This document shows positions 25,601 through 62,970 of a stretch of DNA of 64,000 bases, one piece after another (position 1 is the first letter of the stretch; the number at the start of each line of letters is the position of its first letter). The notes beneath the pieces were generated by a model that worked only from the letters and a program-made list of their open reading frames with translations, did not search any database and had not been told where the DNA came from. Source of the DNA: Patiria miniata (Eukaryota); NCBI RefSeq assembly GCF_015706575.1, contig NW_024037060.1:2792515-2856514 (forward strand). The letters run 5' to 3'. A program made the position numbers and the translations under genes.

Positions 25601-28600
25601 CCAGCCCATTAAATTATGAGCAATATGACTTCTCGCCTCTGGTTTCTTTCTTTTTTTCCTCCCCCTTTTTTTGTTTTTCAAGGGGGGGGGGCGCCTCCTT
25701 GCCCCCCCCCCGCGACGCTAAGGACCCTGTCTAGCACATCCCCGTTTTATTCCACAGATATTTCGGTCTATCAAAAATCAGAAATGCACGTCATTTGTGT
25801 CTTTGGCAATTCCAATATTCCTCACAATTATAGTTTGTATATACATGTATACACTGCTCCCAGAAAACACTCGTCTAACTTTCTTTGACAATGAAAAACA
25901 ACTTGTAGGCCTACCTCTATAAAAGACGAATATTGACTGTTTCTTGAGAACTAGCTTGGAATCTATTTGTTACGGAAAACACATGCTGATCGCTTCAGAT
26001 TTTGATTAGATCTAAACCATGAATTGGAGATTTTCCTCAGAAAAAAAAATATAATTTTCAATTTCGGTACCCAACCCCTGCAACGATAATAGGGACCGGA
26101 TCCAGGCTCCATTGGGTTGCAGACAAACAAAAAGAAAAAAAGGTTTTTTTTTTTTTGGGGGGGGGGTAAAATAAAACATACGAAAATTCGTTGGATGAAA
26201 AGATGATGGGAAATGCCTAAAATAGAAAGCACTGACAGTAGACACAAAGACTTATGTCTCGTGGGCTAATGTCACAAGATGTCAATGTCACAAGACAGGA
26301 ACTGACTCCCAACGATACCGTCACTTTTAAGCATGGTTCATCACCAGACCTAGACCCACAACGTAGGCTCTGAAAAGTGAAATGTGCCATTTGAATAAGT
26401 TTATATATTTTGAAGTTTTCCAGTTGATGTACATTATGTCCCTCAAGTCAAGTGTATCCTGACACCTAGAGTGACTTCTTCAGTATGGCAAATCATCGGA
26501 ACTTTTAAAAGATCTCAGAATCCCCAAATTATGAAGTAGCCTTAATCTTATCAGTGGTTTCACAGTCGCAATTTTACCAAGCGAGCACTAGAGCCATCCT
26601 ACTTCATCCCGAACCTACACGTTTGAGCCACGAGATTATCACGACGGGGGAATATACCCCTCTTGCAATTTGGTGTTCGTTCGGCAGATTTCATGACAGC
26701 TCATGCAAACTTGATGTCGAGAAAAAAATAATATGACAGTCCTTCGAGGCTAAAGACCGTCTGACCGAGTGGGCGATTTCAGTCTTGACTTCTATGCAAC
26801 CAAAAACAATTTCGCCACATCATCTTTTTAAGGTCTTTCGACCTTTATCCTCTTGGGGCGGCCCCTCATGAGAGACATCTCAGACAGAAAAATAAAATCT
26901 GCCGGTGTATCAGAGTGTACCTTAATGTACACAATATGCTTGGTGTTATTATGATGGCTGTCATGACTGGAATGCCTGTCTGTGACAGAGATGAAACACG
27001 GTGCCCTTGACTTCCCAGGTGATGCAGGGTGCTTAATTAAAATAAATCCTCCACGCATCCCTGGCGATTGCAGGAGGAGAGACGAGCTCCAGGCGACCAG
27101 TGTAGACATGACAGACTTCATTATTAGTTCGTCTTATGTATAGTAATAAGAGTCAGAGTGGTTGAGTTTGACTTAGGTTAATATTATTTCTGTCCCTGCC
27201 CCTCCGACTTTGTGGGAGCACGTCAAGCATGAGACACTCGCCAGACGCGCATGGAAAATCAGAAAATAAGCATGACGTAACGGATATTACCAGATTTTTA
27301 TCCATTTTAAGAGGTAAGCAAATTTTTAAAAAGCTACTTTCACCAAGTGAAATTCAAAGTGTGTGCGTACGCATTTCAGTGGAATCAGGTTCAAATCCTG
27401 GCCCAGCCCATTTCTTTTTAATGAATCCAAAAGTTGTTTGAATCAAAGACGGTAAATGCAGTAACTACGTATACCCAATGGCCCAATCAGTCTCATTTCA
27501 GTGGGAACAAGTTCTAAAACAATGCCCACAATAGCCCATCCCCAGAGGCAGTTTTGTTCATCGATTGCTGGTTGCATGTGGGCTTATGAAAAATAGCTCC
27601 GTCACTATCACCACCTACGTACTAGCAAAAAGGTCGGGAAATACATTTTGTACATCACAAAATATTAATAGGAAACGACGTATCCGGGGGCGAATTGGCA
27701 GGGGGATGGCACGGACCTCAACTTATAGAATTCCCTAAGTGCCACCCAACCAAGCACAAACAACCCAATGGAAACTAGTTACGCCACTGATTATGGGATT
27801 GGTGATATAATTTCACATACTGTTATATACGTAAGGCAAAAGGGGCGTGGCTCTCCTTCCCAGCCTGTTTAGTTTTATACTCCTCTTTGAGCCTACCTTA
27901 CCCTTCAAACACCCATTAATGGGTGCTTAAAGGGTAAGGCACCCTTCGGAATATGGGAATTGACCCCAGTCACCCATTCACACCCATAATAATGACTGCA
28001 AACAAAATCGCATTGGATGTTGTAACGCTTGCTCAATCCTCAATGCGTTGAAAAATACAACGCCCGATTACTTGATCTGCATGACTTTCGATTCGCGGAA
28101 TGGGATTTTTGCCACACCGTCAAACCGGCTCTGCAGTTTATTTATCGGTGCAAGATGGTGCTGCGATATAAATTCCGGAATAAAAAAAACATCACACGCT
28201 TAACTTGGCGCGATGAAAAGAAAACTGACCCCGACTTGGCTGAGCCGGGCGGCATTGCTCTTTGAATCCCACTGCCTCTTTCACCGCCAGGGTGAACAGA
28301 AGGTTACCTTTATTCCTAAACACAAGTTCCGGTAAAAAAAAAACCACCTTAAAATTAAGTTAGGGGTTTATGTTCACCACGTTGCCCTTTGCCTAAGATG
28401 GGGGCGAAAGGTTCAACTTCCCATGTGACGAACAACGCAATGTGTTATAGACAAGCTGGTCAGAATGACATTTGAAGAGAAATTTGGGACAAATAAATAA
28501 ACAGCCATGACTTACCTCGTATTTATACCCGTCCTGTCGAGCCATGGTAAAAACCCTCGCACTCCCAGCAGCCGCACCACTTCGAAATGAACTAATAACG

Positions 28601-34491: not shown

Positions 34492-37124
34492 GTACGCACT
34501 AAGTCTTTCTCTATGTTTTATTTTGTTAATTGTTGAAATCAAAACTGGCCTATTACACTGTGAACAGAACCTGGTCTGATTGAACAAAGGTTGCACATGG
34601 ATCAGATGTAGATTTTGGATTGTCGACCCGGGTGGTAGAGCCTTTCAACGCTGGCCTTGACCAGGGTTGATTGGGGGCAGAGTGCTGGATCCGTGTAGTG
34701 GCCGTTTTTAATTCTTGCTAGAAGTTCCCGAAATCTCAGGGTTTGACGCTGGTCCAACACAGAGATTTTGTAGATTGTAAAAGAACCTTGTGTGTATAAA
34801 ATTTTGCAGGAATGCTGTCCAACTTTTAGGAATGCAATCATGAGCATGAGCATATATGTGTAGCTTTTTGCAAACCTGAAATCTCTCCTTCCCCAGTTGC
34901 AGCATATTGGATTCCACATGTGAAGTATGATGTCGTTGCCATGATATACTGCAACATTTTCACATTAGGCCGTGAAAAAAACATGCTTTTTCATTTTCTT
35001 TTACATTAAACAAATATATAGTGCCGATCGATGGGTACAATCTTTTCATTTTGCTATTTTTTTTTGCCAGAAAAAAATAGTGCGAGACGATCATTTATTG
35101 GTATGCATTTGTTACATTTAACGCGTGAATCAACTGTTTATCCATGTAACTTTGCTGCATACTGTGGCAAGACAACAGTGCTAACCAACTTTAATCAAAC
35201 AATTAAATATAAATTCCAAATAAAGCAAGACGATGTTCCTCTAAAAACTAGGCTGGGGGCACCACCATAAGTTTTTATATATTTTGGGGGTCATTTTTTT
35301 CGAATAAAAGATTATGTTCTGCATGATTTTCTATGGTGAGTTGGGCAATAGGAAATATCTACAGATATTTTTTTTCTTGGCCTTGTGGTTTAGGTATGTC
35401 ATGCTATGCATGACCCCAGCTGAGCTGTTGTGATTGAAGCATACAACGTATACATGCGCAGTTGCATAGAATGCCACATGTCGTCGCAAGTGCTGAATCA
35501 GTAACGACTTAAAAAGAATACCCAACCCATATGTATTGTGCACAAAGGCAAACATATTCCATACACAGATGTAAAAGTCACAGAGGTTTATTTTCAATTC
35601 ACTGATTAAAGGGAATGTACATCATTGGCTTATGCTATAATTTTCAGAAATGAACTATTTGAGGGGTTAGTATAATAGATCAAATTATTGTTACACGGAC
35701 ATGTTTGAAGTTTTGTTTTCGAAAATGCTGGAAAAACCAAGAAAAACAAAAATGTTCAATTAGTCTGGTTCCCTGACTCCACTGAAGATGAAATGGATCA
35801 ATTTACAGATGCCGGAAAATTGTATGCTGACCTGCACCCATTCATGAACATAAAACCAATTAGCAAACAAAATTGGACTGAAAAAATGGGAAATTTGGAG
35901 CAGTAGTGAAAAATAGTTAGGTTTTTCCTACGGTGGTCGGCCGACCACCGTTGGAAATGTAAACAAAAATACAATTTTCTTGAAAATGACTTCACACCAG
36001 GTGCCATAATTTTACAGGATGCTTTAGACTGTCATTTACCAACATCCTGTAAGGTATTTTGTAAAAACTTGGTCATTTTATTTTTCGATGTTTGCAAATG
36101 TTGTATTTTCCCTTTAATGACGGAAACCTTGCACAAAGTGCAGAAAGGATTGGTATCAAATACACTGTGAATTATTCCGCCTGAAAATGAAATGGTATTG
36201 TTCGGAAGAAAACTATTGAAGGTAGTTTCAAAATAGGGCACTTTTTTTTTTACATGCATTAGCAATGGAATCCAGTTTCTGAGACCCAAAAGATTTTGCA
36301 AAAATGTGTTTCCTCTGTTTCCTCAAAATGTACAGAAGCCTCTGAGCTCAAATTCCACAGGTTAGTTGTTAGGCACCCTGCTTAACATTTGGAGCAATTT
36401 TGTTGCTTCAAACAAACAAAATGCACCAAAAAATGAATCTATGTACCTTAATGTTGTAAAATGAAATTGTTTGTACACATTTGTTTATTGTGTGTGTTGA
36501 TCATGTTTTTTCCAATGGTTTATTTTTATTGTAGTCTGGCCCTCTGATGTTTATCCTTGGATTATGTAGCCAAATCTAACACCTCAACTAATTATGTAGG
36601 CACACGTTTTCATAAACACCTGTTGGCAGTGCTGCAGCTGTGTATTGATGAGCAATGTATATTGAACAAAGCAATCAGATACCATTGTATACACTGTTCA
36701 TAAAAATGAACAAAATGTTTATACATGCACCTGTGACCAGCAAACACTTGTATACAATGTACATATACAGTCATGTTTGTTTTTTAGGGAGTAAAATACT
36801 GAGAAAAAAAGGCTTTTGAGGCTTGGAGTTTTGTATCTAGTCATGAAAATGAAAGATGCTAATTGTTTTTCAATATAAATACCTTTATTCCACGATTTTT
36901 ATACTTTTTCTTTAAAATATGTGTAGAAGACTTAACAAAGATTACAAAGATCAATTAAATCTGAAAATTAAATTGAAAAAAATATCATCTACATTGTTGT
37001 TTTTTGTTTTTCTTGCATTTTTCTTCACTCAGCCTGTGCCCAGTCCTGTTTCATTTCGCCAGAACCTTTCACATAATAGCAGCTATGTAAATAGATAGAT
37101 GTTTTCCTTGATTTTATCTTACAG

Positions 37125-43248: not shown

Positions 43249-44613
43249 GTATTTATGACATCCCCAAATCGTCAGTCCGGTACCGGAGGTGGGCCTAAAA
43301 AGGGTGTCTAACTACAGTGTGGTAGATTAGTAACATGTAACTAGGTATACAAGTGTTCACTTTTTTCACTTGGAACTATGTATGTGAAATGTCCAATATT
43401 TCTGACATATCTTCATGCTTCCTAACATTTTTACTCATTTTGTGATTGAAAGTTTCGAACATTAGGCCTGAGAAGAGTTTTAGTGCATTGTTATTGTGCA
43501 GTCCCCAGTACTTTTTATAATAGGTGTAAGTTAAAAGGAAGAATTTTAAACTCAACCTACAAAAGCTGATGTAAATTTATTCGTATATTACAAACATTTT
43601 GTTCTGTACCAACCAGGATGAAGTAAATTCATTAAGGTAACGGCATACGTCACAATGAAACTTCAATTGTCATGAAATTCTCTTTGTTTGCACAAAGTAT
43701 TTGAACTGGCCTTTGAATTGGTAGGAGGCGTTGTCTTGGTTTTCCATATTTTTAAAAATAAAATGCAGAGTTACCATTATTGGTTTTGATAAGGCTGAAA
43801 GCTGGCTTTTCTACGTTAAAGCTTTTTTCTCAGTTAAAAGGTGTTGGAAATTAAAGGTGATATACAACAATTAAAAACATCAACAAACAAAACTACCAAA
43901 TTATTATGAAACATCTTTACTTGGCTGTAAGTTAATAATAGTCTCAAGCATCCTGTGAAATCATGGCACCTGATTTTGGGGAAACAAACTGACTTTTTTC
44001 CAAATATTGCCTTAATTTACTTAATTTAGTTAGGCCACACTTTGTTTGCAATCAGGTACATATCCGTGAACAGATGCAAATCAGCTAGTGTGGTTCCCTG
44101 ACGTCTACAAATTGCTTCGATTTTTCTGAAGTAGGGTCAGGAAACCAGACTACAAGAACAGCATTTTTTTCTAGGTTTTTCCAGCATCTATGAACACAAA
44201 ACTTTAAACAGGTCAGTGAAACAATAATTGCTATGACATACCGATTCATACCAACCACAAATCCATCCATTTCTGAAAATTACAGAAAAAGCAAATGTTG
44301 TATATCACCTTTAGGCAATGAACAACAATACTAATTGACATTTGAAAAAGATCTTTTTTTTTTACTTCTTACCTCAAGTTCCAATCACATATAAAATATT
44401 GAGTCTCATGTTTTTCTTCTATGAAATGTGTCATAGTGCAGTAGAAAGTCGCTGATACTTGCCAAATGCCCAAACATTCATTCAAGTGCCATTAACATTT
44501 ACATTGAGTTATGTAATTTATATAAAATATTTAAATTGTTTGTGTTTTTCTGTTATTATTGAAATTATCAATATGTACTTACAGTTATTGTATAAATCAT
44601 GTTTTAAGGTTAG

Positions 44614-44954: not shown

Positions 44955-45791
44955 TTAATTGAGCCTTTTTGAAGAGAGTCAATTTTCAGGGAAAAGCTTT
45001 AGTTTACTAATATAATAGAATAGAAAATGTAGGAATACTTAGGTTAATCATGATGATAATTTGTATTGAAACAGGCGATTTTCTTAGAGGAATTTCCAAT
45101 TTTCTGTTATATCTGTTATAGTTATTGTGAAGGGTTGCTACGTGTTATTATGTTTTCCTCTTTTTGCATGCAATATTTTTGATGATTATACACTAATTTT
45201 GGAAACAAATTAGCCATTTGTGGCTAATGTCAATTGATTTACCTTTACAATATACATGGTCATTGAGAAGAGTAAATGGCAGCCTTCTAGAGTATTATTT
45301 TACAATATTCTTTTTTAATTCACATTTAGTGGGTTTTTTTTTCAAAATAAGCATAGGCCCTGTTTAGTATTGTAGCTATACTATATCCAGTGTAACCTTA
45401 TTAAGTTGTATTGGATTTTTTTAATCCAAAAATAAGGGTTTTTTTCTCACTTTTATATACATGTACATGTAGTGTGTTATCCTCGGTGGTAGAGATTGTG
45501 CATGCTTATTTACTTAAAAAAAGTTAAATAAAAAAAAAATGAAACAAAAAAACAAGTGTTATTAGACTGATTTGTAAACAGTTGATTGCTTGCCTGGTTG
45601 CTGAATTTGCTGTCTTGGTTGGTTGGTTCAGGGGGAGAGGAGGGGGGGGGGGGGGCACGTGCAAAGTCAAGGTATCCCCACAAATAAAATTCGAAATTTG
45701 GCGCTTACCAAGGAAGTGTCTTTTTTGAAAGTATTTTGTTTAGTTATTAAAATGGAGAGGGATCTTGATGACCATTTTGACTTCCCTTAAC

Positions 45792-46115
45792 CAAAGACGG
45801 ATCCAGAACAATTTTTTTTTTAGGGGGGGGGGCCAAAAACTTTGTTTGGGTCCCCCAAAAAGTGGGTGCCACAAATTACGGCGTGGGGTTCGGGGCCCGC
45901 TTTATTGGGGGATCTGGAAAATGGATTCTAGATGCTCTGTGGTGCGATCTGAGACTATTTCTGACCACTTTAACTAAATCTTTTGGAGGGAAAGAAGGTG
46001 GTGTACGCTGTGCCTGCCTTTATTGGGACGCCACTTAAACAAAACAAAAATTGGTTTCGTTTTTTTTGGGGGGGGGGGATGGCCCCCGTTGCCCCCCCCC
46101 CCCGATCCGCCCTTG
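45792..46115 (+). mobile_element. A hAT-like MITE copy A. Its termini read CAAAGACGGATCCAGA…GATCCGCCCTTG and are rich in G and C homopolymer tracts.
   Basis: It aligns along its whole length to the reverse complement of 48231-48524. It lies 1.1 kb upstream of the subtilase start codon. Confidence 0.7.
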
Positions 46116-47264
46116 CCATTTAGCCGTACAACGGCTTTATGGAAATATGAATAAATTGCCCTCTAGCGTCAAAAAAGGTCTCCCCTCTCCCGCTTTTCGA
46201 ATTTGCAGCTCTTGCTGTGGCCTGGAAATGTGGGAGAAATATTGTTGGGTCCCCCTTGGTGCCCCTTCATAACATACTGGTGCCCTCTCCCCCCCCCCCC
46301 CTTTTTTTTTTTTTTTTTTTTTAAAGTTCTGGCTACCACTGGATGGAAATGATAGCGTGTCCGGATCGAACTTTATACCTGTATCTATGGAGAGCAGAAA
46401 AGAGTCGTGTAGTGCTATCGAATTGGAGAACCCGTTAAGTCAGTGATAGTAGCCACTCCAAATGAACTGAATAGCATTTTGTGCGTTCTTGGACCAGTTT
46501 TACCAGGCCTTCCTTGCCCTACTGTCTCGTTCGTGTGCCCCAAGTTGACTGTTCCTCAGTTCCCTCCAAGTTCAGAAAACAAAGATTCTAAGTAAATTGA
46601 CAGATCCTAAGTTAATAGACATAATCTCTATGCGTGTTTTGTAAGTTATCGCCAAGGTGCGAGGCGTATTTGAACAACGAGAAACCATCGCGTCAAACTT
46701 TGAACTTTAAACAAGTGAGATAAAGGTCACTTGAACCTGATGTGGACACTGCAATCGTTAGATGTTCCAATTGAATTACTGTGAATTGAAATTAGGCTAA
46801 TGCGGTTGTTGTGTTATCATGTAACTACTACTCATACAAGGTAACTTTATTCATGAAAGTACTAACTTCGGGCTTCGTGAGTGCAAATCCGTGGTGTGTA
46901 ACTTCTTTGGCTTGAAGGTGAAGTAAAGGGTATGTTTCAATTCTTCTGGATACCGATATTTGTGGTAATATTTGAATGAATTATGTTGCCATAAAACTTT
47001 GTCCGTTGCAAAATATCATTATACTTACGATGTACTGGCCTTCATTCCTGATATAGGTATAGAAGGTTTTTTTTTCGAGAACGGAAAGTATTACCGATGT
47101 CTCCATGTATGAAATTACTATGGCTAAAAAACAAACCATGTAGCAAAACTGTTAAAGCTTTGCTTCGTGTGCCTGATCCGATCAATTGCCAGGGTTAAAG
47201 ACAACTCCTAAACAAAAAAGCACACACTAAGTTTTCTTTCTTGCAGTAAATTTCGTCCTGCAAC

Positions 47265-47378
47265 ATGAGAACCGTTGTTCTGTTGTGTTTGTGCCTCGTG
47301 CTGGTACTCGGCGATCCGCTGGCCCCACTCTACCACACTGAGGATCCTGTGCCCAACATGTACATCGTCAAAATAAAG
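47265..47378 (+). CDS. Subtilase gene coding exon 1: MRTVVLLCLCLVLVLGDPLAPLYHTEDPVPNMYIVKIK, a signal peptide and the start of the I9 propeptide. The exon itself begins at an acceptor at 47247, so a 5'UTR exon lies upstream.
   Basis: The ATG sits 18 nt downstream of the acceptor ttttctttcttgcag. The exon ends at a GC donor AAG|GCAAGT. The only GT alternatives break the frame or delete the YIVKIK propeptide motif. Confidence 0.8.
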
Positions 47379-47929
47379 GCAAGTCTTGAAAGTTTACATT
47401 TTTCTTAATCCCATTATTTTCTTAATTATTCGTTACCAGGTTGGTGATGGCAACGCCATTTGACCTGGTTTTTTTTTACGGTTAACATTCTGTAAAATTC
47501 TGTGAAGTATTTCAGACCTTCTCTATACCGTGTCCCGACTCCCGAAACTCTTGAATGTATGTAAACAAAACTACGTTCTGCTGCACAATATTTTCTTTAA
47601 GTCAAAGGAAGTAAAATGTTGTTGCTCTTGCAAAAGTATTTGTTACAATTAGAGAAAGCTTCACAGGAACAATGGCCGAACCCGGTGATCGTAACAATGA
47701 AACCATTAAATTGAATGTAGTTCATAAACTTCATACATAGCGGGTTTCAGTTGCCCCACATCGAAATGATACTCTCTGGTTTTACAGAAATTGCATGCGA
47801 TTTAATATTACCAGCAACCTTGATCCTACATCGAGGTTGTATAAATAAGGTGGAGATTTCTCCCTCACTATCGGCAATGCAACACTTTTTACAAAGTGAT
47901 GCCTTAACTTGAATTATCTTTCATAACAG

Positions 47930-48067
47930 GACAGTGTCGAAGCGGCTTTTCGAGAGGGCAGATTGCAAGAGCAGATGGGAAGGGCTGGACTTCTAACTGC
48001 TGTCAGGAGAACTACTCGTTTCTTGAACACTGTTGTTATGGAAATCCCGGAAGATAAAGTGGACTCG
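47930..48067 (+). CDS. Subtilase exon 2: DSVEAAFREGRLQEQMGRAGLLTAVRRTTRFLNTVVMEIPEDKVDS, the inhibitor_I9 propeptide.
   Basis: This is the only open frame. The acceptor is tcataacag and the donor is GTGAGC. Confidence 0.85.
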
Positions 48068-48230
48068 GTGAGCTGACTTTGCTACTTTTAACGCGATAAA
48101 TACCGAACTGGATGGGTTTTTTTTCGCCGAATGTAATTGTACTTGAGCGGGTAGATTAAAACAATTGAAACGGAGTTTTTTTTACATAGAAAGGGTGCAT
48201 AACTTGTATCGTTAGCTGCGCAAGGGCGGA

Positions 48231-48524
48231 TCCAGAGGGAAGCAAAAGGGGCCTTACGCCCTCCCCCCCCCCCCAAAAGTACAAATTATTTTTTTAAAGT
48301 GACATCGCAATAAAGGCCACCACTGCTTCCCCACAATCTTTTCCTCAAAAAAATTAGTTAAAGTGGTCAGAAATTGCTTCAGATCGCACTACAGGGCATT
48401 TAGAATCCAAAAGATATTTGGGGACCCCGCACCGTCATTTTTTTGTACCAACTTTTTTGGGGGACGACAATTTTTTTGGGCCCGAAAAAAAATTGTATTT
48501 TGGATCCGCCCTTGTATAGCTGCG
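48231..48524 (-). mobile_element. A hAT-like MITE copy B, inverted relative to copy A. Its TIR is CAAGGGCGGATCCA. An 8-bp target-site duplication TAGCTGCG is intact on both flanks. It sits in subtilase intron 2.
   Basis: The terminal 14-bp inverted repeats are exact. The flanks read …cgtTAGCTGCG|caaggg… and …cccttg|taTAGCTGCGcg…. An 8-bp TSD is characteristic of the hAT superfamily. Confidence 0.75.
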
Positions 48525-48959: not shown

Positions 48960-49089
48960 GTTCGAGCCATCGACGGTGTGGAGTACGTCGAGCAAGATGG
49001 CATTGTGCACGCAACTGAGGTGGGATCCTGGGGACTAGACCGCATTGACCAGAGAGACCTACCACTCGATGGAAACTACTCTGCACCAG
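48960..49089 (+). CDS. Subtilase exon 3: VRAIDGVEYVEQDGIVHATEVGSWGLDRIDQRDLPLDGNYSAP, the propeptide end and the mature N-terminus.
   Basis: It contains the proteinase-K family signature SWGLDRIDQR. The acceptor is tgattcag and the donor is GTACTG. Confidence 0.9.
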
Positions 49090-49431: not shown

Positions 49432-49686
49432 GTGACGGTGAGGGCGTGCGTGTTTACGTGATTGACACGGGAGTTCGCCACACCCACGAGGAGTTCGAGG
49501 GCCGAGCCCACCTCGGGTACGACGTGTTCGATGACGGCTGGGGCGGCGGCGACTGCGGCGGGCACGGCACACACTGCGCCGGTACCATCGGTGGCAAGAC
49601 GTACGGTGTGGCCAAGAAGGTTACCATCTGGGCTGTCCGGGTACTGGACTGCTCCGGGTCGGGGACTTGGTCCGGTGTCCAAGAAG
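49432..49686 (+). CDS. Subtilase exon 4: [55 protein letters not shown]…[16 protein letters not shown]. It contains the catalytic Asp (DTG) and His (HGTHCAG).
   Basis: The exon is GC3-rich, about 68% GC. It ends at a second GC donor GAAG|GCAAGT. Alignment to proteinase K (GSGQYSTIIAGMDFV versus [15 protein letters not shown]) requires this donor. Confidence 0.85.
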
Positions 49687-50037
49687 GCAAGTTGGTTTCA
49701 GACAAGTATTTGAAAACGTCCTTTCTACCGATTATTCTACAGGGAGGCTCCTGAACTATAGAGTGTGTCAGCTCATGCCAAAAATGCATACCCCCGATCC
49801 AAGGCTCAGTCTGTGCGATCCTGTGACCTAGAAGTTGATGTACCAATTAGCTAAGACCAAACCTGGCCAGCTATGAGCAGGTCATTCAACCATCCACATC
49901 CTGATTACTGAATGTTTTTCTTCTATGCATGTTCGTGCGATCAGACCATGCACAGGCCATATGCTTAAGCAAGTAGACCCATCGCCTGGCTATTGTATTA
50001 CCAAATTTGATTGTGAATTCTTGATCTTGAACTCCAG

Positions 50038-50225
50038 GTATGGACTGGGTCATAGGTCATGCAGCTACTGCCCCTTCGGTTGCCTCCATGTCCCTGGGGG
50101 GAGGTAAGGTAGAATCCATCAACAATGCCGTGACCAGGATGCATAACGCGGGGATAACCGTGGTTGTATCGGCGGGAAATGACAACCGACCGGCATGCAT
50201 GAACTCACCGGCTAGCGCTCCCAAA
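50038..50225 (+). CDS. Subtilase exon 5: MDWVIGHAATAPSVASMSLGGGKVESINNAVTRMHNAGITVVVSAGNDNRPACMNSPASAPK. It contains the oxyanion-hole Asn.
   Basis: The acceptor is aactccag and the donor is GTGAGT. The exon is collinear with proteinase K …SLSLGGG…AAGNNNADA.NYSPAS.P. Confidence 0.9.
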
Positions 50226-50764: not shown

Positions 50765-50956
<192 letters not shown>

Positions 50957-51287: not shown

Positions 51288-51424
51288 GTGTAGCAGCAAT
51301 GGAGCTTGGTAAGAACAACAACCTGGATCCCTCAGATGTCGCCAACATTCTCATCAAAAGGGCCGTCAAGGACAGGGTGGCCAATAAGGGATCGGACTCG
51401 GTTAACCTTCTTCTCAGGGTTTAA
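51288..51424 (+). CDS. Subtilase exon 7: VAAMELGKNNNLDPSDVANILIKRAVKDRVANKGSDSVNLLLRV*, ending at the stop TAA at 51422-51424. There is no C-terminal extension domain.
   Basis: The acceptor is ttctgacag. The frame joins exon 6 to give PHVSGVAAMELGK, which matches subtilase PHVAGAAALL. Confidence 0.85.
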
Positions 51425-53575
51425 TTATAAAGGCACCAACAAAAATCGCACTTATCGGCCTACATGTTTGTCGTATACTTATGATTACATAACACAATAC
51501 TAAACGCAAACGATATTTATTTATAGAAAAATACAAATTGTACATACTGAGTATACGAGGTTTATATTCATTTAAGGAATAACTCGAGTTGTGCTATAAA
51601 TCAGTTGCATGAGATTTAGTCTGAAGATCAGACGTACGTTCACGTTGAGCCACACTACAAACGTCTGATATTATGCGTGCATGTATTTTTATGCGATTTC
51701 GCGCTCCAGATAATCGGAGCCGCCTTTAGAAATTGTGACGTAATTTTGAGACGAAGTTCGGCCACAGCTGTTGACTAGTCGTGCTTTTGTCAAACAACGT
51801 CGAGTTACCTAAGACACGGTAGAAGGCGCCTGCTGAATGATCAGAATCTGGAGGTCAAAACGCAGTGTTGTTTTGCATAATCTGCTCGCATATAGACAGC
51901 AAGCATCTGTTCTACAGACTAAAGAGACATTTTCTTTGTCAAGAAAATTTTTCTAAAACAAAATGTTTTTGATCGTATTTTGTTTTAATTACATACAGTT
52001 AAAAGCTATAGCTACTGCTAGAGTTGCTAGGTTTTTTTTTAGCAATACTGATACACATAAATCAAATAAACATCAGGAAGTCTTTAGTAATCCGCAAAAA
52101 AGTAAAAGATGAAATATGAATCAGGAGTGTTCCGGTGTCACATGAAAATCCGACTCCTATGAAAATCGGACCCCTATTTCCCTATTATTGGTCGATCCCT
52201 CGCACGTGACAGGTCACTCTCCCGAAACGATCCTAAAAATAGCATAGTATCGTACTCACGCGTGCGCAGTACTACCAATGAGTCCACATTTCATGGAGTC
52301 GGATATTCACGCTACACCTGTCCTACTTATGTTTCTTTCATAAGGTCGTTAAAATCAGCCAACAGTTTGGCCAGCAATTTCGTTCCACTTCCTCTAAAAC
52401 CATGTGTGATATCGATCTAAGAAAATATAATTTAAATCTAAGATAATTTAAAAAAATGCAACAAGGACAAAATAACAACTTGTTTGAATATATATATTAC
52501 AGTTAACTATTCAGTAGCGAAGTGTGTACACAATATACGGTAAAAAAAAATTCCGACTAAGTTGCATCATTACATGTGAAGAATAAGGAGTTTTGTTAAT
52601 TTCAAATTGACTTTGAATTTGCTTTAAAATGAAATAATAATAATAATGATATAGTAAAACTTGTATTTATTATGCGCAGATACCATGAAAAAAATGTTCG
52701 AATGTGCATTACAAGATTCGAACAATTATTGTTACAAATATTAACTTACGGATTAAAACTAAACTGTAGTCTTAAATGTAAAAAAATACATATTTTAGAA
52801 AACACTGTCAAAACAATGAAACTTAAAATTACAAAAGCAAAAACGTAGAAGTAAAATAACCAACAGAAAACCTTATAAGAATGCCTTTTTAAAAAGAAAA
52901 ATTCTTAAGCTTGGTCTTTAAAAACTGACAGAGACTGAACAGACTGAATCTCAGGTGATAGCTGGTTCCATATAAGCTGGAAGGGCTTGTGCAAAATGCA
53001 CGGTTCCCCATAGTTTTTATTTCGTGGCATTCTAGCAACCTGCCATCTTATGAAAAGCAACCTGCCATTAGACCGTAGGGAATAGTTTGAAATAGTTTGA
53101 TTTCGTTTCATTGTTGTTCGTTTTGGTGCGCTGAATTTCCTTGTGGTCTATCAATTTCCATGCATCATAACTCGATTCATCGCCCGGCCCTCGGTTTTCT
53201 GTCTAAAATTATGACAGTTGATTGTTGTTATTCATTTTTCCCCCTTCACGATCTCCCAATGCTCGCGTAGAAACGCGCAGAGAAATACGCGAGAGAACGA
53301 ACCCAAAGTTGCCGTGCGAGATTTACACAGTGTCAAAAACGACAGAATTTAAATTGTTTTACCATACTGGTAACACAGTAGTATATTTTCATCTTTTCAG
53401 AATGATTAATTATCTTGTAAGGGTGCCGTTTTAAACACCCTGTAAATTTTGCCAGCTTAACGAATGCTTGTTATGTGAGACTTTTTGCAATTATGGTGTG
53501 CGAAACATTTTCCGAAGATTCCTTTAAAAATGCATCCGAGACGCTTTACGCAACCTCGTGAGAAAGCCGGAAAAT

Positions 53576-56808: not shown

Positions 56809-56910
56809 ATGCCACTGCGGGTTATTCAAGGCACATTGGTGCATGCACAGTCTGCAAACCAGCCACTCCAGATTTTGGAGAATAACGTTATTGGAGTCGA
56901 CAAAAACAAG
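56809..56910 (+). CDS. GDA: Guanine deaminase coding exon 1: MPLRVIQGTLVHAQSANQPLQILENNVIGVDKNK.
   Basis: The sequence aligns to the vertebrate GDA N-terminus (MPPLAHIFRGTFVHSTW…LLGVSDSGK). The donor is GTGAGA. Confidence 0.8.
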
Positions 56911-58573: not shown

Positions 58574-58585
58574 GTAAGGAAACTA

Positions 58586-58720
58586 TGTCACCCCTCCCCC
58601 CCCCCAAAAAAAAAACATTCTTACAAACGGAGACCATGCCCCCCCCCCAAAAAAAGTCCACTTTTTTTTAAGTGACATCGCAAAAAAAGGCAGCGACTGC
58701 GTACACCACCCATGAGTAAT
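58586..58720. mobile_element. A fragment of the same hAT-like MITE family (…CCCCCCAAAA…AAGTGACATCGCAAAAAAAGGC…) in GDA intron 2.
   Basis: It shares the AAAGTGACATCGCAATAAAGGCCACCACTGC block with 48290-48330. Confidence 0.5.
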
Positions 58721-58842
58721 ATACATAATAGCTCCCAAAAAAAATCATTCAGGTTTATAAACTCTTTATTTCTTTTTAATGCACAGCACTAGTCCAAGAT
58801 GCTGGTTTCTGAAAACTATAATTTTTGTTTTGGCTATTTCAG

Positions 58843-61775: not shown

Positions 61776-62970
61776 GTAGTCCGTCAGTCCCCTGTTATTC
61801 CCTGAGTTTTTGCTTTTTCTTGGCAACAGCAAAGGGCTAAACTGCAACACTGCTGTTGTATTGCCGCCCAAGACCCAGAACTACGACTTTGAAAGATGGG
61901 GGGACTGTTGTTGTTAGAGCACCATCAGTGTTCCAAAAGTTACAGGCTTAATTTCCATTTAAGTGATTATCTTTGTAGAAATGCAAAAAATAGACGAACA
62001 GGTTATTCTTTTCAGTTTCTGCTTCAGTTTTAGCTGGACCCAAAGGTTAAGATAATAATTGTTGAGTCAGGTGTTAATGGGAATATACATCATTTGCTTT
62101 TGCTGTAATTTTCAGAAATGGATGGAATTGGGGAGTTGGAAATATATAGCAAATACAGTTACACTGACTTTTTTGAGGTTTTGGGTTCAAAAATGCTATA
62201 AAAACCAAGAAAAACAATCATTTTCCTGTAGTCTGGTTCCCTGACTCCATTTAAGAAGAAACAGAGCAGTTTACATACATTGGGGAATTGTAAGGTCAGG
62301 GAACCAGTCTAGCATGCTTCTACCCGTTCATAGGTGTGTAATCGATTGCAAACAAGTGCGATGGTCAACTGGGGCCAGTATTTGAAAAAAAAGCCAGTTT
62401 TTTCCAACGCTGGTCTGCCGATCAGCGTTGGAAATTGATACAAAAATACCACTTTTCTTGAAAATGACAGTATACCAGGTGCCATGATTTTACAGGATGC
62501 TTTACACTGTCATTCACTAACAGTCCAGCAAGGTATTTCAAAATGATTTGGTAGTTTTATTTTTTGATGTTTGCAAATGTTGTATTTTCCCTTTAATGTT
62601 AAGCCTAACCCCCAAAGGGCTGGTTGGGGGTCAAGTACCAAATACCACAGAATACTACATGTGCTGTGCACACTTGTATGGAAAGAAATTAATACTACAG
62701 GTTACTACTCAATGGTATTTTGTAGCATTGGGGGCTGTTAGGGTTAAGTGACAAGTCCTTCCCTTCGTAATACCGGACTGAAATTCCTTTCGTTCATTTT
62801 TTTCAGCATTTTTGTGCAAAGCTATCAAAAGAAGGTTGGTTACTGTGTGAGCTGGCTTTTGTTTATAAGAGCTCGGTTGATAGCTTTCACATCGTGATTG
62901 TTGAAGTACATCGCCGGCATGCATTTCTTGAAATATATCTATGGAGGCTAGATTTCTTTCCTTTTACTAG

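What the first reader, a model, noticed from the sequence alone, without database searches (positions are those of the whole stretch)
45792..48524. An inverted pair of hAT-like MITEs brackets the promoter and first two coding exons of the subtilase gene
Copy A (45792-46115, plus) and copy B (48231-48524, minus) are full-length inverted homologues 2.1 kb apart. Copy B keeps a perfect 8-bp TSD (TAGCTGCG), so it is a recent hAT-type insertion into intron 2. Copy A sits 1.1 kb upstream of the ATG. Such an inverted pair can pair in nascent RNA if it is read through, can seed small-RNA production, or can mediate inversion of the 5' gene segment. A third fragment of the family sits in GDA intron 2.
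Basis: seen in the sequence. Interest (0 to 1): 0.5.

Follow-up and report, generated by a model that had tools for sequence, protein, structure and literature searches.

The report
Two old hAT-type MITEs near a gene
Two diverged copies of a small non-coding DNA transposon (a hAT-type MITE) lie in opposite orientation on either side of the start of a sea-star protease gene; this is an ordinary repeat landscape, and nothing shows that the pair does anything.

Summary
The window is Patiria miniata (bat star) DNA. The core match has E=1e-28, and homology stops exactly at the terminal inverted repeats (TIRs).

- **Copy B:** it has perfect 14-bp TIRs (CAAGGGCGGATCCA) and a perfect 8-bp duplication, TAGCTGCG. 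An extra TA separates the right TIR from the right duplication.
- **Copy A:** it has decayed TIRs and at best a 5/8 duplication, so it is older.
- **Third copy:** a fragment (58629-58710) lies in GDA intron 2, as claimed.
- **Gene model:** my 7-exon subtilase model matches NCBI's P. miniata protein at 100%, so B is in intron 2 and A is 1150 bp upstream of the ATG.

The hAT assignment is supported. The TIR is identical over 15 bp to silkworm BmMITE-13 (8-bp duplication) and matches 9/10 bases of the TIR of Tip100, an autonomous hAT element.

The proposed consequences (RNA pairing, small RNAs, inversion) are untested. Pairing is thermodynamically possible, but A probably lies outside the transcript. 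The longest identical stretch is 21 bp, which is poor substrate for recombination. No genome-wide census was possible with these tools. Verdict: ordinary, low interest.

The parts
45792..46115 (+). MITE copy A (324 bp), the older copy. Its 5' TIR is CAAAGACGGATCCA (45792-45805) and its 3' TIR reads CAAGGGCGGATCGG on the reverse strand (46102-46115). It lies in the intergenic spacer, 1150 bp upstream of the subtilase ATG.
   Evidence: The TIR arms differ at 4 of 14 positions. The flanking 8-mers CCCTTAAC and CCATTTAG match 5/8 (chance p about 0.03), which would fit a decayed TSD.
48221..48514 (-). MITE copy B (294 bp), the younger copy, with perfect 14-bp TIRs CAAGGGCGGATCCA. It lies inside subtilase intron 2, 153 bp after the donor site and 445 bp before the acceptor site.
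   Evidence: (I13). The RNA fold is -93.4 kcal/mol with z = -4.2.
48213..48220 (.). Left target-site duplication of copy B, TAGCTGCG.
   Evidence: (D11).
48515..48516 (.). Extra TA between the right TIR of B and the right TSD. It is most simply explained as a slippage duplication of the first two bases of the TSD, or as 2 bp added at insertion.
   Evidence: read directly from the sequence.
48517..48524 (.). Right target-site duplication of copy B, TAGCTGCG.
   Evidence: (D11).
58629..58710 (-). Truncated third family member. It corresponds to alignment positions 207-302 and has no TIRs. It lies in GDA intron 2 (about 58576-58841), beginning a few tens of bp after the donor site.
   Evidence: nhmmer E=1e-11; blastn at 74.7% over 95 nt to A; GDA exon mapping.
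47265..47378 (+). Subtilase coding exon 1 (ATG at 47265). It ends in a GC donor, AAG|GCAAGT.
   Evidence: 100% match to the NCBI protein. The same GC donor is present in the A. planci orthologue.
47930..48067 (+). Subtilase coding exon 2.

Best explanation
A and B are two independent cut-and-paste insertions of one family of non-autonomous, hAT-type miniature inverted-repeat elements in the Patiria miniata genome. A hAT transposase encoded elsewhere would recognise the CAAGGGCGGATCC termini, excise the element and reinsert it at a staggered 8-bp cut, which produces the TAGCTGCG duplication around B.

A inserted long ago into the spacer between a PDI-like gene and the subtilase gene, and has since decayed by about 16% at its ends. 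B inserted later into subtilase intron 2 and is removed with the intron. Their opposite orientation and 2.1-kb spacing are most likely coincidental in a gene-rich region dense with MITEs, and the pair is most likely a neutral passenger.

Shown here: homology, termini, TSD, relative ages and position relative to the exons. Inferred: the transposase class, mobilisation in trans and neutrality.
For: - **Homology.** A and B align along their full length and homology ends exactly at the TIRs.
- **Mobile-element signatures.** B has perfect 14-bp TIRs and a perfect 8-bp TSD.
- **Dispersal.** A third, truncated member lies 10 kb away in another gene's intron.
- **Non-coding and unmatched.** The longest stop-free stretch within A or B is 81 codons, the window has no long transposase-like ORF, and there is no Rfam match.
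- **Fold-back.** Fold-back potential is typical of MITEs, with B at z = -4.2 and A at z = -2.0.
- **hAT link.** The TIR is identical over 15 bp to BmMITE-13, which has an 8-bp TSD. It matches 9/10 bases of the Tip100 hAT TIR, also with an 8-bp TSD. The literature describes hAT elements as having 10-25 bp TIRs and 8-bp TSDs.
- **Orthologous loci.** The syntenic A. planci and A. rubens loci keep gene order but have no copy at either position. This fits lineage-specific insertion.
- **Other MITEs nearby.** A second, unrelated TTAA-flanked MITE family has three copies in the same window, so MITE density here is high.
Against: - No autonomous partner or transposase was found, and the family could not be counted genome-wide.
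- The 8-bp TSD rests on a single copy, and a TA separates it from the right TIR.
- The TSD sequence TAGCTGCG matches neither the Ac-type (nTnnnnAn) nor the Buster-type (nnnTAnnn) target consensus (my knowledge; n=1, so this is weak).
- Neutrality is assumed, not shown. The predicted A x B RNA duplex is very stable, so an effect cannot be excluded if A is transcribed.
Confidence: 0.82

Rival explanations
1. The inverted pair is a working RNA-level module. Transcription reads through from the upstream same-strand PDI-like gene, or starts at a distal 5' UTR exon upstream of A. This places A and B in one precursor RNA, where they pair across coding exons 1-2. The result would be double-stranded RNA, small RNAs or exon-1-2 back-splicing, as happens with inverted Alu pairs.
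For: - The predicted A x B duplex is -316.5 kcal/mol, against -124 +/- 8 for shuffled B and -219 for the two self-folds combined.
- The upstream gene is on the same strand.
- Coding exon 1 is preceded by a good acceptor-like site (ttctttcttgcag|TAAATTTCG). A further-upstream non-coding exon probably exists.
Against: - No transcript or small-RNA data are available.
- A lies about 2.5 kb beyond the last coding exon of the upstream gene and 1.15 kb before the ATG.
- The A. planci gene range begins only 700 bp upstream of its ATG. By analogy the TSS would lie downstream of A.
- A is absent from the orthologous loci, so any such role would be recent and lineage-specific.
- The copies are 24% diverged, with no sign of selection maintaining complementarity.
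Confidence: 0.05
2. The pair is a structural-variation substrate. One route is inversion of 46116-48220 by recombination between A and B. The other is mobilisation of the whole 2.7-kb block as a composite 'macrotransposon', using the outer ends of A and B, as in Ac/Ds alternative transposition.
For: - The outer ends form a correctly oriented TIR pair: CAAAGACGGATCC at 45792 and GGATCCGCCCTTG ending at 48514.
- hAT elements are known to undergo alternative transposition (my knowledge of maize Ac/Ds).
Against: - Identity is only 76% and the longest perfect block is 21 bp. That is far below what efficient homologous recombination needs (my knowledge).
- A's outer TIR carries 2 mismatches to the consensus.
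- No active transposase has been shown.
- The reference arrangement encodes an intact gene that matches the NCBI model.
Confidence: 0.03
3. The elements are MITEs of a different superfamily that can also make 8-bp duplications (P, Merlin, Mutator), not hAT.
For: An 8-bp TSD is not unique to hAT. Only one TSD is available. No transposase was linked to the family.
Against: - The TIR starts CAAGG and closely matches the termini of a proven hAT element, Tip100.
- It also matches a MITE family classed with 8-bp-TSD Pegasus-like elements.
- The TIR is 14 bp, within the hAT range of 10-25 bp.
Confidence: 0.08
4. There is no mobile element. The similarity is a chance or low-complexity match, or a local inverted segmental duplication.
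For: Both copies are rich in homopolymer runs, and T(n)G(n) tracts are common across the window.
Against: - The best-conserved part is the non-repetitive core, with 64 nt at 88% and a total E of 1e-28.
- Homology stops at the TIRs.
- There is a TSD and a third dispersed copy.
Confidence: 0.01

Closest known systems
BmMITE-13 of the silkworm Bombyx mori (Han et al. 2010, PMC2997013), classed there as 'Pegasus-like'
   Same: The TIR is identical over 15 bp (CAAGGGCGGATCCAG, matching the left end of copy B). Both have an 8-bp TSD with no fixed sequence, are small (263 bp against 294-324 bp), are non-coding and sit near genes.
   Different: The host is in a different phylum. BmMITE-13 has 240 counted copies, whereas the copy number here is unknown.
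Tip100, an autonomous hAT transposon of Ipomoea purpurea, and the 'Tip' family of hAT elements (PMC12511174, PMC3942097)
   Same: The Tip100 TIR CAGGGGCGGAG matches CAAGGGCGGAT at 9 of the first 10 bases. Its 8-bp TSD has been shown experimentally. The Tip family occurs in animals, including insects and Hydra.
   Different: Tip100 is 3.8 kb and encodes an 808-aa transposase. The sea-star elements are about 300 bp and non-coding. No Tip-type transposase was linked to them here.
Inverted Alu or MITE pairs that flank exons and pair in pre-mRNA, giving dsRNA, A-to-I editing or circular RNA (my knowledge)
   Same: The geometry is the same: two inverted copies of one repeat family on either side of exons. 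The predicted duplex is strong.
   Different: Here one arm is upstream of the first coding exon and probably outside the transcription unit. No RNA evidence exists, and the copies are 24% diverged.

Membership tests
hAT-superfamily MITE | 8-bp target-site duplication of variable sequence | tested here: met
   Copy B has TAGCTGCG at 48213-48220 and 48517-48524. There are two caveats. A TA spacer sits at the right junction. Copy A shows only a 5/8 match (CCCTTAAC against CCATTTAG, p about 0.03), so the feature rests on one clean copy.
hAT-superfamily MITE | Short TIRs (10-25 bp) beginning YARNG | tested here: met
   B has perfect 14-bp TIRs, CAAGGGCGGATCCA. A's arms match at 10 of 14 positions. 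The length range comes from PMC3942097 and the YARNG pattern from my knowledge.
hAT-superfamily MITE | Termini shared with an autonomous element that encodes a hAT transposase | tested here: inconclusive
   There is only a cross-species resemblance: 9/10 bases to the Tip100 TIR and 15/15 to BmMITE-13.
hAT-superfamily MITE | Small, non-coding, with fold-back potential | tested here: met
   The elements are 294 and 324 bp, and the longest stop-free stretch within either is 81 codons. Translations of the conserved core found no protein relatives. Fold z-scores are -4.2 (B) and -2.0 (A).
hAT-superfamily MITE | Many dispersed, homogeneous copies in the genome | not testable with these tools
   Only 2 full copies and 1 fragment were found in 64 kb. 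No eukaryotic genome collection could be searched. Scans of metagenome, viral and prokaryote contigs gave only chance hits or nothing.
hAT Ac-type or Buster-type target preference | TSD consensus nTnnnnAn (Ac) or nnnTAnnn (Buster) | tested here: inconclusive
   TAGCTGCG and its reverse complement fit neither consensus. With n=1 this says little. The target preference of the Tip family has not been described.
Exon-flanking inverted-repeat RNA module | Both repeat arms lie within one primary transcript | not testable with these tools
   No transcript data are available. Position argues against it: A is 1150 bp upstream of the ATG, and the A. planci gene range starts 700 bp upstream of its ATG.

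The most novel reading that the evidence does not exclude
The A/B pair is more than debris. In one version, A is transcribed from a distal start site or by read-through from the PDI-like gene. It then pairs with B across coding exons 1-2 and produces dsRNA, small RNAs or an exon-1-2 circular RNA that tunes the subtilase gene. In the other version, the outer TIRs of A and B act as a composite hAT 'macrotransposon' able to move a promoter and two exons.

A separate point is the 15-bp TIR identity with a silkworm MITE. It could reflect a single Tip/Pegasus-type hAT lineage shared, or transferred, between insects and echinoderms.
Probability: 0.04. Interest if true: 0.45.

Novelty: new member of a known kind. 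Interest (0 to 1): 0.1.

Why it matters
It matters little on its own. The finding adds a hAT-type MITE family to the P. miniata repeat catalogue and gives a candidate presence/absence marker, copy B, whose predicted empty site is ...TTGTATCGT TAGCTGCG CGCCGGCAG.... Its TIR is identical to that of a silkworm MITE and close to that of Tip100, which points to a widespread Tip/Pegasus-like hAT lineage in animals. It would be worth more only if RNA or population data showed that the pair affects the subtilase gene or generates structural variants.

Tried and rejected
1. **Fetching more P. miniata DNA for a census.** Look-ups of P0001, P0003, P0022 and an ORF overlapping copy B all returned 'not on record'.
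2. **Metagenome scan.** A scan with the 19-nt conserved core found 5 contigs, but homology does not extend beyond the 19-22-mer. These are chance hits.
3. **Protein-level search.** Aligned translations of the conserved core, used to fish for MITE-derived ORFs on public contigs, found no candidate.
4. **TIR-pair pattern scans.** Scans of viral contigs (two gap ranges) and prokaryote genome contigs found nothing.
5. **Empty-site test in the A. planci orthologue.** Only exons align and the introns and spacer are too diverged, so absence there is uninformative about the exact site.
6. **Extra copies in the window.** The nhmmer hits at 26102-26166 and 41-122 are driven by low complexity and lack TIRs. 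The flanks of the eight solitary T(n)G(n) tracts show no similarity to the MITE (all p>0.12). I rejected all of these as family members.
7. **Rfam.** The interval gave only sub-threshold noise.
8. **Literature search.** Searches with core and TIR strings returned only BmMITE-13 and Tip100 as relevant. The other hits were primers. The BmMITE-13 consensus sequence is not in the held supplements.
9. **A. planci element.** A possible decayed related element at L001:8313-8517 has a CAAGGGCGGATTA end, but no TSD and no clear second TIR. I did not count it.

Full report
**Source and gene context**

The window is genomic DNA of the bat star Patiria miniata. I assembled a 7-exon gene by hand: 47265-47378, 47930-48067, 48960-49089, 49432-49686, 50038-50225, 50774-50945 and 51288-51425. 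Its 377-aa product is 100% identical over 100% of its length to NCBI 'aqualysin-1-like [Patiria miniata]', and 82% identical to an Acanthaster planci protein.

A tblastx comparison with the A. planci locus L001 shows conserved synteny. The order is a PDI/thioredoxin-like gene on the + strand (exons about 34.3-43.3 kb), then the subtilase gene (+), then an Ig-like transmembrane gene (-). Guanine deaminase (GDA) starts at 56809.

**Checking the observation**

Copy A (45792-46115, +) and copy B (48221-48514, -) align end to end.

| Measure | Value |
|---|---|
| Alignment columns | 330 |
| Matches / mismatches / gap columns | 219 / 69 / 42 |
| Identity over aligned bases | 76% |
| K2P distance | 0.29 |
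| Longest perfect block | 21 bp |
| blastn core | 162 nt, 76.5%, E=1.5e-28 |
| Best ungapped arm | 64 nt, 88% |

- **Boundaries.** In a self-BLAST of the whole window the match ends at 45792/48514 and 46116/48220, which are the element termini. This excludes both a homopolymer artefact and a larger inverted duplication.
- **Coordinates.** They include the right TSD and omit the first 10 bases of the left TIR.
- **Copy B.** It has perfect 14-bp TIRs (CAAGGGCGGATCCA ... TGGATCCGCCCTTG). It is flanked by TAGCTGCG at 48213-48220 and 48517-48524. An 8/8 match has probability 1.5e-5 per offset pair, so the duplication is real.
- **TA spacer.** The simplest reading is a TA-to-TATA slippage of the TSD's first two bases, or two bases added at integration.
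- **Copy A.** Its arms are decayed (CAAAGACGGATCCA against CAAGGGCGGATCGG, 4 of 14 positions differ). Its flanking 8-mers match only 5/8 (CCCTTAAC against CCATTTAG, p about 0.03).
- **Distances.** The A-B gap is 2105 bp. A ends 1150 bp upstream of the ATG. B sits 153 bp after the intron-2 donor and 445 bp before the acceptor.

**What the elements are**

Both are non-coding: the longest stop-free stretch inside them is 81 codons, and the window holds no long transposase-like ORF. They fold back on themselves (B -93.4 kcal/mol, z = -4.2; A -125.6 kcal/mol, z = -2.0). They match no Rfam family. The combination of TIRs, a TSD, small size and dispersed copies defines a MITE.

Three things support the hAT superfamily assignment:
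- Copy B has an 8-bp TSD.
- The TIR starts CAAGG.
- A literature string search linked the termini to known hAT-type elements. The 15-bp terminus CAAGGGCGGATCCAG is exactly the TIR reported for BmMITE-13 of Bombyx mori, a 263-bp element with an 8-bp TSD classed as 'Pegasus-like' (PMC2997013). The autonomous hAT element Tip100 has the TIR CAGGGGCGGAG and makes 8-bp TSDs experimentally (PMC12511174).

Tip100 gives its name to a third major hAT group, which has animal members in insects and Hydra (PMC3942097). No autonomous partner could be identified here, so the link to a specific transposase clade is inferred.

**Relative ages**

B shows 0 changes in 28 TIR sites and 16 TSD sites. This bounds its decay since insertion at about 6.6% (95%). 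A shows 7 changes in the same 44 sites, about 16%. Together these figures roughly account for the 24% mismatch between the copies.

A is therefore old and B is clearly younger. 'Recent' in an absolute sense is not demonstrated. Neither copy is present in the syntenic loci of A. planci (L001) or Asterias rubens (L008). The non-coding DNA there is too diverged for an empty-site alignment.

**Proposed consequences**

- **RNA pairing.** It is thermodynamically plausible. RNAduplex gives -316.5 kcal/mol for A x B, against -124 +/- 8 for shuffled B and -219 for the two self-folds summed. Pairing requires both copies in one RNA.
- **Is A transcribed?** A is intergenic, about 2.5 kb past the last coding exon of the upstream gene and 1.15 kb before the ATG. 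The A. planci gene range begins only 700 bp upstream of its ATG. An acceptor-like site just before the P. miniata ATG implies an upstream non-coding exon whose position is unknown. A is probably not in the subtilase transcript, but this is untested.
- **Inversion.** Recombination-mediated inversion is unlikely at 76% identity with a 21-bp maximum perfect match.
- **Composite transposon.** Mobilisation through the outer TIRs is formally possible but has no support.
- **Clustering.** The window also contains three copies of an unrelated TTAA-flanked MITE family. With 2 full copies and 1 fragment of the present family in 64 kb, two copies falling 2 kb apart in opposite orientation is unremarkable.

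**Limits**

A genome-wide census, TSD statistics, small-RNA mapping and polymorphism tests were not possible. The P. miniata assembly is not indexed in the contig look-up. The searchable DNA collections are viral, metagenomic or prokaryotic, and they returned only chance hits or nothing. A protein-level search using translations of the MITE core also found nothing.

**Verdict**

The 'hAT-like MITE' label is well supported. The functional ideas are speculation with the odds against them. This is an ordinary feature of an invertebrate genome: a new member of a known kind, of low interest.

Noticed in passing
window 35598-36119 (+), 43850-44322 (-), 62074-62598 (+): A second, unrelated repeat family of about 520 bp, 73-81% identical between copies. 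Its TIRs are about 25 bp (AGGGAATATACATCATTTGC... / ...GCAAATGTTGTATTTTCCCT) and are flanked by TTAA, so it looks like a piggyBac-type or other TTAA-targeting MITE. One copy lies in the same intergenic spacer as copy A.
   Followed up: partly
window 17839, 26144, 31303, 34077, 38065, 38433, 38599, 42103 (plus those inside the MITE copies): Composite homopolymer tracts of strict polarity, 5'-T(6-13)G(9-13)-3'. Eleven such tracts occur in 64 kb, against zero G(n)T(n) tracts and at most one of any other type. There are also 32 G or C runs of 10 or more bases in a genome of about 40% GC. The flanks of the eight solitary tracts show no similarity to the MITE. A. planci loci have a few such tracts too. 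Their origin is unexplained.
   Followed up: partly
window 47379-47384 and 49687-49692; L001:10816-10821: Subtilase introns 1 and 4 use GC-AG splice sites (AAG|GCAAGT). The intron-1 GC donor is conserved in the A. planci orthologue (AAG|GCAAGT). The gene model with these donors reproduces the NCBI protein exactly.
   Followed up: partly
L001:8313-8517 (A. planci, about 2.4 kb upstream of the orthologous ATG): A possible decayed related element that begins CAAGGGCGGATTA (compare the BmMITE-14 TIR CAGTGGCGGATTA), contains a C9A9 tract and ends ...GCACCCTTG. It has no TSD and only an 8/13 match at the second terminus. It may indicate that hAT MITEs with CA..GGCGGAT ends also occur in Acanthaster.
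   Followed up: partly
window 58592-58660: In the GDA intron-2 fragment, the piece homologous to the 3' part of the MITE is followed by a second T10G10 tract whose context resembles the 5' subterminal region (AGAATG-T10-G10 against AGAACAA-T10-A-G10 in copy A). This suggests a rearranged or tail-to-head remnant that has lost both TIRs. It begins about 15 bp after the exon-2 donor site.
   Followed up: no
window 45629-45657 and 46276-46325: Long purine-rich and pyrimidine-rich homopolymer blocks flank copy A. G-rich GGGGGAGAGGAGGGGGGGGGGGGGG lies about 135 bp upstream, and C13 followed by T21 lies about 175 bp downstream. I did not establish whether they belong to another decayed element into which A inserted.
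   Followed up: no
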